From: the human T2T-CHM13v2.0 reference genome, Homo sapiens
Assembly: GCF_009914755.1 (NCBI RefSeq)
Contig: NC_060927.1
Reading direction: 5' to 3' (one strand)
Length of the DNA stretch: 64,000 bases
Both the position numbers and the translations under genes were made by a program. The first letter of the stretch is position 1. The number at the start of each line of letters is the position of its first letter. Positions 39,838-41,394 of this stretch are shown here, one piece after another. The notes under the pieces were generated by a model. It did not search any database and was not told the DNA's origin. It was given only the letters and a program-made list of their open reading frames with translations.

Positions 39838-39951
39838 CTTCATAGCCTGTTCCATCTGGTGCTTGTTGGCTTTAACATCCACAGTGAACACAAGTGTGTT
39901 GCCTTCTGTCTTCATGGCTGCTTCTCCAGCAGTGCCAATGGCCCCCCTCCC

Positions 39952-40242
39952 TTTTTTTTTTGGAGATGGAGTCTCACTCTGTTGCCAGGCTGGAGTGTTA
40001 TGGCATGATCTTGGCTCACTGCAACCTCTGCCTCCCAGGTTCAAGCAATTCTCCTGCCTCAGCCTCCTGAGTAGCTGGGACTACAGGTATGCACCACCAT
40101 GCCCGGCTAATTTTGTATTTTTAATAAAGACGGGGTTTCACCATGTTGGCCAGGCTGGTCTTGAACTCCTGACCTCAGGTGATGCCCCCGCCTCGGCCTC
40201 CCAAAGTGCTGGGATTACAGGCATGAGCCACCGTACCCAGCC
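39952..40242 (-). mobile_element. Alu inserted in the RPL23A pseudogene
   Basis: Full reverse dimer; TSD ccaatggccc (39935, 40244). Confidence 0.93.
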
Positions 40243-41394
40243 ACCAATGGCCCTTTTATACTCTTTGTTCTTGGATGAGAACCACAAAGCCTCCCACGCA
40301 CCTGCTCATTCTCCAGAGACCTTAGTCCTGCAATCTCCTCATGGTCAGTGGGAACTTGAGGCTGGCATAGTGGTCAAACTTGTTTCTTCTGAGGGCACTC
40401 TTCCAAGGATATTTGGGCTACCTGTGGTGTCGCAGTGTCTTGGGCCACCAGATGTGGATGACTGGTCTCTGGGGAATGGGCAGGTGCGATGGAGGCTTTG
40501 TCCTGTGGACACCTTTCAGCACTGCCTTCTTGGCCCTTAAAGTCTTCACTTTGGCTTTGGCTTGAGGAGGGGCAGGAGCTTCCTTCTTCGCCTTGAGTGC
40601 CATCTTGTGAAAAGTTCTTTCCTATTTTAGACTTCAGCACCTGAACAAGAGTGGGCAGATATGTACTCCAAGCTCCAATGATGACCGTGAACCCTACAGA
40701 GTTGGAAGTGTGGAAAGCGAGGCATTGTGTCCCTTGTCTGAGACTTTGTCCTTTTGCCCTGAGCAAAAGTCTGGACCTCACTGAGCTGCCCTACAACCAT
40801 GTGGCTGTCCCTTCCTTTTCTAATGCTGGCCTTTCTCCCTTCTCATATTCCCCCTTTCTTCTGTAGCCCTAGTGGGGTCCCTGCATCTCCCAACTCCATT
40901 TTTCTGAGTCACCAACACTCTTATCAGAAATATCCTGGCCCTAGTTCTCTCTTGTCCCTATAAATTGTGCAGCCTCCAGCATCTCTCTCTGCTGTCCTCA
41001 CTTTCTGTCACTGGGTACAGAGAAGAGGTAGCTCTGAGACCCAAGAGTGGACATAAAGGACATTCAGGATAAAAGGGACTCCCATTTCAAAGTGCAGTTT
41101 GCTCTCCCCCAAATATGTTAGCAAAAAAATTAGACCCATCTTGCACCTCAAGGATTAGTTAACTTTCAAAGGGGCTACATAAGTACTTCGCATTCCTTTT
41201 GTCAACACAGCTTTAATCTTTCACTTTGTAGAACAGAGGTCCCGCTGCCTTCTCAACCCTAGGTCTTTATCACAATGTGCTTTTCCATTAACTCGGGGAA
41301 ATTATGCTCACATGTTCCTGCCTAATTCTTGGGTTCCTACAGTGGATGGGAAGGTAGGAAATGGGAGAGGCTTTGAAGAGAAAGGTTTTTATGT

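What the first reader, a model, noticed from the sequence alone, without database searches (positions are those of the whole stretch)
39913..40337. RPL23A retrocopy contains a ~110 bp copy of unique DNA from 3 kb upstream, joined by 8-nt microhomology
Seen: between the codons for ...PLT(T)E and AMK..., the pseudogene carries non-RPL23A sequence (39921-39944 plus 40254-40336 once the later Alu and its TSD are removed). It is collinear with 36956-37069 on the same strand, with about 13 mismatches in 114 by eye. From recalled RPL23A mRNA, the antisense strand at this junction reads ...cttCATGGCAGactc..., and the donor begins CATGGCAGcttc. Inference: either the L1 reverse transcriptase left the mRNA, copied the local minus strand (DNA or a nascent minus-strand RNA) and returned to the same position on the mRNA, or a Pol theta-type templated insertion occurred later. 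A there-and-back template switch onto the neighbourhood of the target site would be a rarely documented event.
Basis: partly seen in the sequence, partly recalled or inferred. Interest (0 to 1): 0.8.

Follow-up and report, generated by a model that had tools for sequence, protein, structure and literature searches.

The report
Templated DNA patches inside RPL23AP93 pseudogene
An old dead retrocopy of a ribosomal-protein gene on human chromosome 3 carries two short stretches, not one, copied from unique DNA 3 kb away; they are most likely scars of error-prone DNA repair or replication made after the retrocopy landed, a known kind of mutation preserved here with unusual clarity.

Summary
RPL23AP93 (minus strand, 39531-40614) is interrupted, in the middle of parental exon 3, by 109 nt collinear with 36964-37072. 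The copy has 12-14 mismatches in 117 and no gaps. It was later split by an Alu. The donor is single-copy in the whole assembly and absent from the RPL23A locus. The 8-nt microhomology CATGGCAG holds against the real parental exon.

New here: a second patch from the same donor, 39 nt and inverted (40464-40502), replaces about 16 nt of the retrocopy. It is joined through a 7-nt microhomology (CCACAAA).

Dating favours a later event. The retrocopy lineage has 56/495 changes (11.3%). Donor and patch differ by only 10-12% across two lineages, giving a relative age of 0.45-0.59 (equal age: p 0.006-0.06). A 66-nt tandem triplication in the same retrocopy also post-dates insertion.

Best reading (about 0.6): post-insertional, microhomology-primed template switching by a DNA polymerase (MMBIR / synthesis-dependent end-joining class). 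A there-and-back switch by the L1 reverse transcriptase remains possible (about 0.2). Primate orthologues, which could not be reached here, would decide. It is a new member of a known kind; interest is moderate to low.

The parts
36956..37072 (+). Donor: single-copy intergenic sequence. 36956-36963 (CATGGCAG) is the 8-nt microhomology with the RPL23A antisense strand. 37016-37022 (CCACAAA) is the 7-nt microhomology with RPL23A mRNA 113-119.
   Evidence: Genome-wide it matches only itself and the patches. There is no Rfam hit and no CpG island.
39500..39511 (.). Left target-site duplication of the retrocopy (CTTTTCTATTTT). It is followed at 39512-39530 by the decayed A-tail, read as T-rich on the + strand.
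   Evidence: 11 of 12 identical to 40616-40627. A score this high or higher occurred in 1.15% of 2000 shuffles.
39531..39920 (-). 3' part of RPL23AP93 (mRNA 265-537). It includes three tandem 66-nt units (39644-39709, 39710-39775, 39776-39841) that each correspond to mRNA 350-417.
39913..39920 (+). Departure junction of patch (i). It now reads CATGGCTG and corresponds to mRNA 265-272. It was an 8-nt microhomology with donor 36956-36963.
39921..39944 (+). Patch (i), left piece, corresponding to donor 36964-36987. Its last 10 nt form the left copy of the Alu target-site duplication.
39945..40253 (-). Alu insertion (39945-40243) plus the right copy of its target-site duplication (40244-40253). 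It is younger than patch (i), which it splits.
   Evidence: It shows 30/291 differences (non-CpG 15/255) from the majority consensus of the 29 full-length Alus in the window.
40254..40338 (+). Patch (i), right piece, corresponding to donor 36988-37072. The return junction to the retrocopy has 1-2 nt of microhomology and loses at most 1 nt of mRNA sequence.
40339..40463 (-). Inter-patch part of RPL23AP93, corresponding to about mRNA 137-263.
40464..40502 (-). Patch (ii): an inverted copy of donor 37016-37055, which also equals patch (i) 40283-40321. It replaces about 16 nt of the retrocopy (mRNA about 120-135/136). It has a 7-nt microhomology CCACAAA at the mRNA-5' side and about 1 nt at the other side.
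   Evidence: 34/38, E 5e-6 in the window; E 4.8e-4 genome-wide. With patch (i) it forms a 38-bp stem.
40503..40614 (-). 5' part of RPL23AP93, corresponding to mRNA 1-112. It reaches the parental transcript start.
40616..40627 (.). Right target-site duplication of the retrocopy (CTTTCCTATTTT).

Best explanation
RPL23AP93 is an ordinary full-length L1-mediated retrocopy of RPL23A mRNA. Long after it landed, at roughly half its present age, a DNA 3' end inside it was released. The cause was either a double-strand break or a stalled or collapsed replication fork.

That end, which terminated in ...CATGGCAG, annealed through 8 nt to the complementary strand of a unique sequence 3 kb upstream. It was extended for 109 nt and returned to the retrocopy at the point it had left, using 1-2 nt of microhomology. 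This produced patch (i).

About 125 nt further on, a second excursion copied 39 nt of the same sequence in the opposite orientation. The simplest route is a snap-back onto the freshly made patch (i), which lies 142 nt away. Synthesis rejoined the retrocopy through the 7-nt CCACAAA match and skipped about 16 nt. This produced patch (ii).

The mechanism belongs to the class of microhomology-primed template switching by a DNA polymerase: MMBIR/FoSTeS or synthesis-dependent microhomology-mediated end joining. An Alu later landed inside patch (i).

Shown: the copies, their orientation, the uniqueness of the donor, the four junction sequences, the order patch before Alu, and the divergence ratio.

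Inferred: the kind of lesion, the polymerase, whether the two patches and the nearby 66-nt triplication arose in one event or several, and the direction of synthesis. The junction pattern 8/1-2/~1/7 nt reads equally well from either end.
For: (a) Anatomy. There are two patches from one single-copy donor, one direct and one inverted. Each is joined by a long microhomology at one junction (8 nt, 7 nt) and a short one at the other, and each returns to the original template. Osia et al. 2021 (PMC8421209, passages read) report this signature for germline 'MMB-TI' events: microhomology at junctions, forward and inverted copying, up to five templates, and return to the original template.

(b) Timing. 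The retrocopy differs from the spliced parental mRNA at 62/495 sites. Six of these are parental-lineage changes, because most of 21 old independent RPL23A retrocopies share the pseudogene state. That leaves 56/495 = 11.3% on one lineage. Donor and patch (i) differ at 14/117 or 12/117 sites over two lineages. The relative age is 0.53 (95% 0.26-0.93) or 0.45 (0.21-0.80), and equal age has p = 0.018 or 0.006.

(c) Other rearrangement in the locus. All three 66-nt tandem units share 3 substitutions and a 2-nt deletion relative to the mRNA, so they were duplicated after the retrocopy had diverged.

(d) The clean first junction. No more than 1 nt is lost, which is what a break whose two ends are primed at their very termini would give.

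(e) Properties of the rival enzyme. ORF2p is reported as highly processive, and its jumps are seen at template ends (PMC10830420).
Against: With CpG sites removed, the timing test is only borderline: 12/113 against 42/463, relative age 0.59 with a 95% interval of 0.27-1.08, p 0.045-0.06.

The test assumes that the donor evolves neutrally and that no gene conversion occurred between donor and patch. Neither assumption could be tested here. If the donor were constrained, the patch lineage alone would carry 10-12%, which equals the retrocopy.

A 109-nt tract copied from 3 kb away is larger and more distant than the events catalogued by MMBSearch, which looks only within 100 bp. From recall, it is also larger than typical Pol-theta fillers.

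All donor-derived sequence lies inside the retrocopy and none lies in its flanks. A co-insertional origin would predict that. However, the two sites are only about 125 nt apart, and such patches are recognisable only where the original sequence is known.

No orthologue lacking the patches has been seen.
Confidence: 0.6

Rival explanations
1. The origin is co-insertional. During target-primed reverse transcription of the RPL23A mRNA, the growing cDNA (the + strand, synthesised left to right) unpaired at mRNA 265-272. It annealed by 8 nt to minus-strand DNA, or to a minus-strand transcript, 2.5 kb upstream of the nick. L1 ORF2p or a host polymerase extended it by 109 nt, and it returned to the mRNA. 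After 125 nt more it snapped back on its own new patch, copied 39 nt, and re-annealed to the mRNA through CCACAAA.
For: Both patches lie inside the region bounded by the target-site duplication, and none lies outside it. The snap-back template for patch (ii) would be the nascent cDNA itself, which gives a neat single-molecule story. ORF2p extends primers of 5 nt and longer on DNA or RNA templates and can switch templates (PMC10830420). [quoted passage not shown] The non-CpG timing interval still includes 1.0.
Against: The patches look about half as old as the retrocopy (p 0.006-0.018 for all sites). Reported ORF2p switches occur at the end of a template and concatenate a second RNA. They are not internal there-and-back excursions. 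The local templated sequences in PMC11702581 were attributed to processing of the reciprocal DNA end, so they sit at the insertion junction and not inside the cDNA. ORF2p is highly processive. The donor is not a known abundant small RNA. The minus strand 2.5 kb from the nick would have to be single-stranded or transcribed.
Confidence: 0.22
2. The patches were RNA-templated at a later break, in the manner of a 'class 2 templated sequence insertion'. A transcript of the donor region was reverse transcribed and the cDNA fragment was captured at a double-strand break in the retrocopy by end joining.
For: Patch (i) has no target-site duplication and no poly(A) of its own, and its junctions show microhomology. 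These match the class 2 features described in PMC5110952 (passages read). The timing fits a later event.
Against: Capture of a free fragment does not need an 8-nt match at the very terminus and does not explain one. A second, partial, inverted copy 125 nt away would need a second capture. Class 2 donors are described as distant loci, and here the donor is 3 kb away in cis. No transcript of the donor is annotated in the table supplied with the finding.
Confidence: 0.07
3. The insert is not a local copy at all. It would be either a dispersed repeat or part of an alternative RPL23A transcript carried in by the retrocopy.
For: None was found.
Against: The donor (114 nt) and its 601-nt context match nothing else in the 3.1-Gb assembly. 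The donor is absent from the 9-kb parental locus. The insertion point is mid-exon 3. None of the RPL23A retrocopy loci fetched (59 loci, 27 independent places as I sorted them) was hit by the donor searches. The search tool warns that its counts are lower bounds, so very old repeats below about 70% identity could be missed. Such repeats would not explain 88-90% identity between two copies 3 kb apart.
Confidence: 0.02

Closest known systems
Germline templated insertions linked to MMBIR ('MMB-TI'; Osia et al. 2021, PMC8421209, passages read)
   Same: A short stretch is copied from a nearby template. Junctions show microhomology. Copying can be forward or inverted, several templates can contribute to one event, synthesis returns to the original template, and events can become fixed or polymorphic in the human germline.
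   Different: The catalogued events were found by design with templates within 100 bp. Here the first template is 3 kb away and the tract is 109 nt. The event is ancient and fixed, and it is read against a known 'before' sequence (the mRNA) rather than against a reference genome.
FoSTeS/MMBIR complex rearrangements (the Lee-Carvalho-Lupski and Hastings models, recalled and not read here; PMC11293582 and PMC5120786 seen only in the search listing)
   Same: There are serial template switches over short physical distances, with 2-8 nt microhomologies, direct or inverted inserted segments, and duplication or triplication nearby.
   Different: Those cases are usually kb-to-Mb copy-number changes ascertained in patients. 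This one is a sub-kb neutral scar.
Pol-theta / synthesis-dependent MMEJ templated insertions with snap-back and loop-out synthesis (PMC4912351, PMC5728401 and PMC5068794, seen only in the search listing)
   Same: Synthesis is primed at terminal microhomology and repair is by deletion plus templated insertion. Patch (ii) looks like a snap-back copy of sequence 142 nt away, with a 16-nt deletion.
   Different: From recall, typical fillers are a few to a few tens of nt copied from within tens of nt of the break. Patch (i) is 109 nt copied from 3 kb away.
L1 ORF2p template-switch chimeras (U6/L1, mRNA/L1 and others; bioRxiv 10.1101/2025.02.02.635956 and PMC10830420, passages read)
   Same: A polymerase leaves one template and continues on another within one insertion bounded by a target-site duplication.
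   Different: Known chimeras join a second RNA at the end of the first template. The partner is an expressed, usually abundant RNA, and there is no return to the first template. Here the excursion is internal, returns to the same nucleotide, uses single-copy local sequence, and appears younger than the retrocopy.
[quoted passage not shown] S10 not seen)
   Same: Local genomic DNA is copied into an L1-mediated insertion.
   Different: Three cases were reported, at the junction with the reciprocal DNA end. They were attributed to end processing and were not internal to the cDNA.
Class 2 templated sequence insertion polymorphisms (PMC5110952, passages read)
   Same: A patch without its own target-site duplication or poly(A), with end-joining features, interpreted as repair of a double-strand break.
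   Different: Those patches are proposed to be RNA-derived and to come from distant loci. Here the donor lies in cis 3 kb away, and the patch is joined by a terminal 8-nt match.

Membership tests
L1-mediated processed pseudogene (the host element) | Intronless, collinear copy of the spliced parental mRNA | tested here: met
   The element aligns to the spliced five-exon RPL23A mRNA from position 1 to 535-537 across all four exon junctions.
L1-mediated processed pseudogene (the host element) | Poly(A) tail remnant and flanking target-site duplication | tested here: met
   An A-rich 18-19-nt remnant lies at 39512-39530. The 12-nt duplication is 11/12 identical, and a score this high or higher occurred in 1.15% of 2000 shuffles.
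MMBIR-type templated insertion | The inserted sequence has a template elsewhere in the same genome, nearby in cis | tested here: met
   The donor lies 2.96 kb upstream of patch (i), and patch (i) or the donor can serve as template for patch (ii). The donor is single-copy in the assembly.
MMBIR-type templated insertion | Microhomology at the template-switch junctions | tested here: met
   The four junctions show 8, 1-2, about 1 and 7 nt of microhomology. Chance expectation is about 8e-5 for 8 nt and 2.7e-4 for 7 nt.
MMBIR-type templated insertion | The event post-dates the DNA it interrupts, so it is a DNA-level event and not part of retrotransposition | tested here: inconclusive
   The relative age is 0.45-0.59. 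Equal age has p 0.006-0.018 for all sites and 0.045-0.06 for non-CpG sites. The test depends on donor neutrality.
MMBIR-type templated insertion | Template within about 100 bp (the operational MMBSearch criterion) | tested here: not met
   The template for patch (i) is 2.96 kb away. Patch (ii) is 142 nt from patch (i). This is a search setting of that study and not a mechanistic requirement.
L1 ORF2p template-switch chimera | The second template is joined at the end of the first, with no return | tested here: not met
   Both patches are internal, with the same mRNA continuing on both sides.
L1 ORF2p template-switch chimera | The partner is a cellular RNA, typically abundant (U6, snoRNA, Alu, mRNA) | tested here: not met
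   The donor is single-copy intergenic sequence. Rfam gave no match in the donor or the patches at E<=1. Transcription of the donor could not be tested.
L1 ORF2p template-switch chimera | The patch has the same age as the retrocopy | tested here: inconclusive
   The point estimates say the patch is younger, but the non-CpG interval reaches 1.08.
Pol-theta templated insertion (TMEJ) | A short filler copied from sequence immediately flanking the break | tested here: not met
   Patch (i) is 109 nt copied from 3 kb away. Patch (ii), 39 nt from 142 nt away with a 16-nt deletion, is compatible. The size norms are recalled and come from no call.
Class 2 templated sequence insertion | No target-site duplication or poly(A) of its own, with end-joining features | tested here: met
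   The junction sequences were read. The class features come from PMC5110952.
Class 2 templated sequence insertion | The patch is derived from RNA of a distant locus | not testable with these tools
   No expression data were available. The donor lies in cis 3 kb away, which is not 'distant'.

The most novel reading that the evidence does not exclude
Both patches were written during the retrotransposition itself. The nascent RPL23A cDNA left the mRNA mid-template and primed by 8 nt on target-site-proximal DNA, or on a nascent antisense transcript, 2.5 kb from the nick. It came back to the same nucleotide, then snapped back on its own new sequence, and re-entered the mRNA through a 7-nt match. 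That would be a there-and-back, multi-template itinerary for an L1 ORF2p-primed cDNA. I did not find such an itinerary described in the literature I searched.
Probability: 0.2. Interest if true: 0.7.

Novelty: new member of a known kind. Interest (0 to 1): 0.35.

Why it matters
A processed pseudogene supplies the exact 'before' sequence, because the mRNA is known. All four template-switch junctions of an ancient germline event can therefore be read to the nucleotide (8, 1-2, about 1 and 7 nt), which is rarely possible in neutral DNA.

The locus is a clean, checkable example that templated-insertion repair can reach a donor 3 kb away and use it twice, in both orientations.

It also suggests a general screen. 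All retrocopies could be aligned to their parental mRNAs and the non-parental internal segments searched for local templates. That would measure how often such events happen. Dating the patches against their hosts would show whether any are made by the L1 reverse transcriptase itself.

For annotation, it explains why RefSeq's alignment blocks for RPL23AP93 break where they do.

Tried and rejected
(1) Splice isoform or retained intron. Rejected: the site is mid-exon 3 and the donor is absent from the parental locus.

(2) Dispersed repeat. Rejected at the sensitivity of the assembly search. A first try with a 1001-nt context was swamped by an Alu at 37320-37615 and was repeated without it.

(3) Donor as a small-RNA gene. 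Rfam at E<=1 gave only 15 Alu-type matches (SRP-like and Alu-derived miRNA families) and none in the donor or the patches.

(4) A mutated source transcript or sibling retrocopy explaining the 'derived' states. No other retrocopy shares more than 10 of the 56 changes, and the shared ones sit mostly at CpG sites.

(5) Error-prone synthesis footprint. The inter-patch segment is more diverged (20/127 against 36/368), but the excess is not significant (Fisher p 0.075; non-CpG 13/109 against 29/354, p 0.25).

(6) Donor constraint or a CpG island. CpG observed/expected is 0.20-0.29 around the donor against 0.30 for the whole window. This is not a test of conservation.

(7) Further patches in the 300-bp flanks of the retrocopy. 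None was found, only Alu-tail and low-complexity matches at E>=0.3.

(8) Simple slippage between the two GAAGAAG copies as the origin of the triplication. The 66-nt period does not equal their spacing, so the junction shows no clear microhomology.

(9) Earlier notes of this scan.

(10) Orthologues in other primates. No tool here holds them.

(11) A literature search for the pseudogene name found 1 paper, an expression list (listing only).
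Full report
WHAT IS THERE

The window is human chr3 (T2T-CHM13), and RPL23AP93 lies on the minus strand. I read the region and aligned the proposed donor with the two halves of the insert.

Once the Alu (39945-40243) and one copy of its 10-nt target-site duplication (CCAATGGCCC, 39935-39944 and 40244-40253) are removed, 39913-39944 plus 40254-40338 is collinear, on the same strand, with 36956-37072. 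There are 14 mismatches in 117 bases and no gaps. The count is 12 in 117 if the right-hand copy of the Alu duplication is used instead of the left-hand one. Within-window BLAST gives E 4e-25 for the 94-nt piece and 2e-5 for the 33-nt piece.

IS THE DONOR UNIQUE, AND IS THE INSERT FOREIGN TO RPL23A?

- A search of the whole 3.1-Gb assembly with the 114-nt donor returned 2 candidates, both scored: the donor and the patch.
- A 601-nt donor context returned 4 matches at E<=10, all in this locus: itself, the two pieces of the patch, and a third, inverted match described below.
- A first attempt with 1001 nt was swamped by a neighbouring Alu and is uninformative.
- The tool warns that its counts are lower bounds, so very old repeat families could be missed. 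They would not explain 88-90% identity between copies 3 kb apart.

To obtain the true parental sequence I did not rely on recall.

- I found RPL23A-like places with the retrocopy's 5' part (97 candidates, 40 scored, 42 matches).
- I picked a near-intact retrocopy and searched with its 156-aa translation (231 candidates, 150 scored). This showed exon-wise hits at C17:29.66 Mb.
- I fetched 9 kb there, mapped five exons with GT-AG borders, and spliced them in a script. The result is 537 nt and translates to the full 156-aa protein.

The retrocopy aligns to mRNA 1-263, 275-417 and 354-535 in BLAST blocks. The interruption lies after mRNA 264, inside exon 3 (mRNA 221-397), so it is not a splice variant. 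The donor has no similarity to the 9-kb parental locus beyond chance 9-10-mers. Rfam finds only Alu-type matches in 36500-40800 and none in the donor or the patches.

THE JUNCTIONS

The parental antisense strand reads ...CTTCATGGCAGACTCAGTGG.... The donor reads ...GGAGCATGGCAGCTTCTCC.... The retrocopy reads ...CTTCATGGCTGCTTCTCC....

By my calculation the chance of an 8-nt junction overlap is about 8e-5.

At the other end the donor similarity runs to 37072 and the mRNA sequence resumes within 0-1 nt of where it stopped, with 1-2 nt of overlap. The insertion is thus essentially clean and has no target-site duplication or poly(A) of its own.

A SECOND PATCH

When I aligned the 5' part of the retrocopy with the mRNA, a 40-nt stretch failed to align and looked like the donor. 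BLAST confirmed the following:

- 40464-40501 on the minus strand matches donor 37055-37018 at 34 of 38 positions (E 5e-6 in the window; E 4.8e-4 against the whole genome).
- It matches patch (i) 40284-40321 equally well.

In the sense orientation the retrocopy reads ...GTCCACAG-GACAAAGCCTCC...CCAGAGACC-AGTCATCC.... The mRNA reads ...GTCCACAGCCACAAAAAGAAGAAGATCCGCACGTCACC.... The donor reads ...GAACCACAAAGCCTCC...CCAGAGACCTTAG....

So about 16 nt of the retrocopy (mRNA about 120-135/136) were replaced by about 32 donor-specific nt. The junction on one side passes through the 7-nt match CCACAAA (mRNA 113-119 and donor 37016-37022; chance about 2.7e-4). The junction on the other side has about 1 nt of overlap.

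In the 39 shared columns the three copies are identical at 33. Patch (ii) has 4 private differences, and the donor and patch (i) have 1 each. This is too few to say whether patch (ii) was copied from the donor or from patch (i). Patches (i) and (ii) form a 38-bp inverted repeat with a 142-nt spacer.

THE HOST ELEMENT

The retrocopy is full length: it runs from the parental transcript start to the polyadenylation region. It is followed by a decayed A-rich tail and flanked by a 12-nt duplication that is 11/12 identical (CTTTTCTATTTT / CTTTCCTATTTT). A score this high or higher occurred in 1.15% of 2000 shuffles. It is an ordinary L1-type processed pseudogene, made in one event that spans both patches.

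TIMING

The retrocopy differs from the modern spliced mRNA at 62 of 495 aligned sites once patch (ii) and gaps are excluded. The non-CpG figure is 47/463.

To correct for change in the parent, I tabulated the same positions in other RPL23A retrocopies. From 59 fetched loci I kept 27 independent places by hand. I dropped second fetches of the same place and all but one member of the subtelomeric family. Of the 27, 21 are below 94% identity to the mRNA.

At 6 of the 62 sites most of those 21 share the RPL23AP93 state, so the parent changed there. That leaves 56/495 = 11.3% on the retrocopy lineage, or 42/463 for non-CpG sites.

Donor and patch (i) are separated by two neutral lineages, yet they differ at only 14/117 or 12/117 sites (non-CpG 12/113).

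| Data set | Relative age of patch | 95% interval | p for equal age |
|---|---|---|---|
| All sites, 14/117 | 0.53 | 0.26-0.93 | 0.018 |
| All sites, 12/117 | 0.45 | 0.21-0.80 | 0.006 |
| Non-CpG, 12/113 | 0.59 | 0.27-1.08 | 0.045-0.06 |

The Alu, which must be younger than patch (i), differs from the majority consensus of the window's 29 full-length Alus at 30/291 sites (non-CpG 15/255 = 5.9%). The patch shows about 4.4-5.3% per lineage at non-CpG sites. The order retrocopy, then patch, then Alu, with the last two close in time, is coherent.

Caveats:
- The test assumes a neutral donor and no gene conversion.
- CpG observed/expected at the donor is ordinary, but this is not a conservation test.
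- The Alu consensus is generic and includes the Alu itself.

A RELATED CLUE

The retrocopy's 3' half contains three tandem 66-nt units, each corresponding to mRNA 350-417. In 66 aligned columns, 3 substitutions plus a 2-nt deletion are shared by all three units. Five columns are shared by two units in the same state, one column differs in two units in different states, and three columns are private to one unit.

The shared changes show that the retrocopy had already diverged when the units were duplicated, barring concerted evolution. The locus therefore did undergo DNA-level rearrangement after insertion.

The post-duplication change (about 10 events over 198 unit-sites, about 5%) is similar to the per-lineage patch divergence. 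One multi-switch event producing the triplication and both patches is therefore possible but unproven.

MECHANISM

The anatomy is two excursions from a primary template to one nearby donor, one direct and one inverted. Each has a long terminal microhomology at one switch and a minimal one at the other, and each returns to the primary template. That defines microhomology-primed template switching.

Read left to right on the + strand, the switch overlaps are 8, 1-2, about 1 and 7 nt. Read the other way they are 7, about 1, 1-2 and 8 nt. The direction cannot be told.

If the primary template was the retrocopy DNA, this is the MMBIR / FoSTeS / synthesis-dependent end-joining class. Osia et al. 2021 describe germline human events with these features, with up to five templates, although their tool looked only within 100 bp (PMC8421209, passages read).

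A break between ...CATGGCAG and ACTCAG..., with both ends primed at their very termini, explains the clean first junction without further assumptions. Patch (ii) looks like a snap-back copy with a small deletion.

If instead the primary template was the mRNA, the polymerase was L1 ORF2p or a host enzyme acting on the target-primed reverse transcription intermediate.

- Points in favour of that reading. ORF2p can extend 5-nt primers on DNA or RNA and can switch templates. A 2024 preprint found 3 induced L1 insertions with sequence templated from DNA near the integration site (PMC11702581; Fig. S10 not seen).
- Points against it. ORF2p is highly processive, its switches are seen at template ends (PMC10830420), and known L1 chimeras join a second RNA terminally without return (bioRxiv 10.1101/2025.02.02.635956). 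The 2024 cases were assigned to processing of the reciprocal end.

Weighing the anatomy (neutral between the two), the timing (favours later), and what is documented for each enzyme (favours DNA-level), I give these probabilities:

| Reading | Probability |
|---|---|
| Post-insertional DNA template switching | about 0.6 |
| Co-insertional switching | about 0.2 |
| RNA-derived patch captured at a later break (PMC5110952) | about 0.07 |
| Anything else | the remainder |

That both patches lie inside the retrocopy is weak evidence for the co-insertional view. They are only about 125 nt apart, and such patches are recognisable only where the original sequence is known.

NOVELTY AND VERDICT

The pseudogene name occurs in 1 paper of the searchable library, an expression list (listing only). 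My searches for internal locally templated patches in retrocopies found no description.

The event is a new, unusually legible member of a known kind of germline mutation. It is larger and reaches further than the catalogued examples.

Noticed in passing
window 39644-39841: The retrocopy contains a tandem triplication of a 66-nt unit corresponding to mRNA 350-417. All three units share 3 substitutions and a 2-nt deletion relative to the mRNA, so the triplication post-dates insertion. Its age looks similar to that of the patches. No clear junction microhomology was found.
   Followed up: yes
window 39890-39912: Two 3-nt deletions relative to the mRNA lie within about 25 nt of the patch (i) junction, in a GAAGAAGATAGAAGACAAC low-complexity stretch. 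They could be slippage or error-prone synthesis near the breakpoint.
   Followed up: no
window 40339-40463: The inter-patch segment is the most diverged part of the retrocopy: 20/127 against 36/368 elsewhere after correcting for parental changes. The excess is not significant (Fisher p 0.075; non-CpG p 0.25).
   Followed up: yes
window 40337-40496: The RefSeq alignment blocks for RPL23AP93 skip 39921-40496. In fact 40339-40463 is bona fide RPL23A sequence (mRNA about 137-263), hidden between the two patches.
   Followed up: yes
L008 / L043 (G000:C3:164203896-164204363, minus): This RPL23A retrocopy is 99.4% identical to the spliced mRNA over 537 nt and has an uninterrupted 156-aa reading frame that differs from the parental protein at one residue.
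   Followed up: no
many loci near contig ends, e.g. G000:C8:10029-10496, C20:11350-11766, C7:12153-12553, C1:248375192-248375663, plus interstitial C2:114036517-114036988: A family of near-identical RPL23A retrocopy duplicates sits within about 15 kb of many chromosome ends, and one sits interstitially on chromosome 2. It appears to be a retrocopy carried along by subtelomeric segmental duplication. I collapsed it to one representative for the counts.
   Followed up: partly
parental RPL23A, mRNA positions 56, 122, 158, 179, 206, 338, 359, 497: At these sites the modern mRNA differs from the state shared by most of 21 old independent retrocopies. These are parental-lineage substitutions that could serve as cohort markers for dating RPL23A retrocopies. 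RPL23AP93 has the old state at 6 of them.
   Followed up: partly
window 37325-37615, 38626-38741, 39061-39333: Alu elements lie between the donor and the retrocopy. They give sub-threshold Rfam matches to SRP RNA and to the Alu-derived miRNA families mir-1268, mir-3135 and mir-1285. These are ordinary.
   Followed up: no
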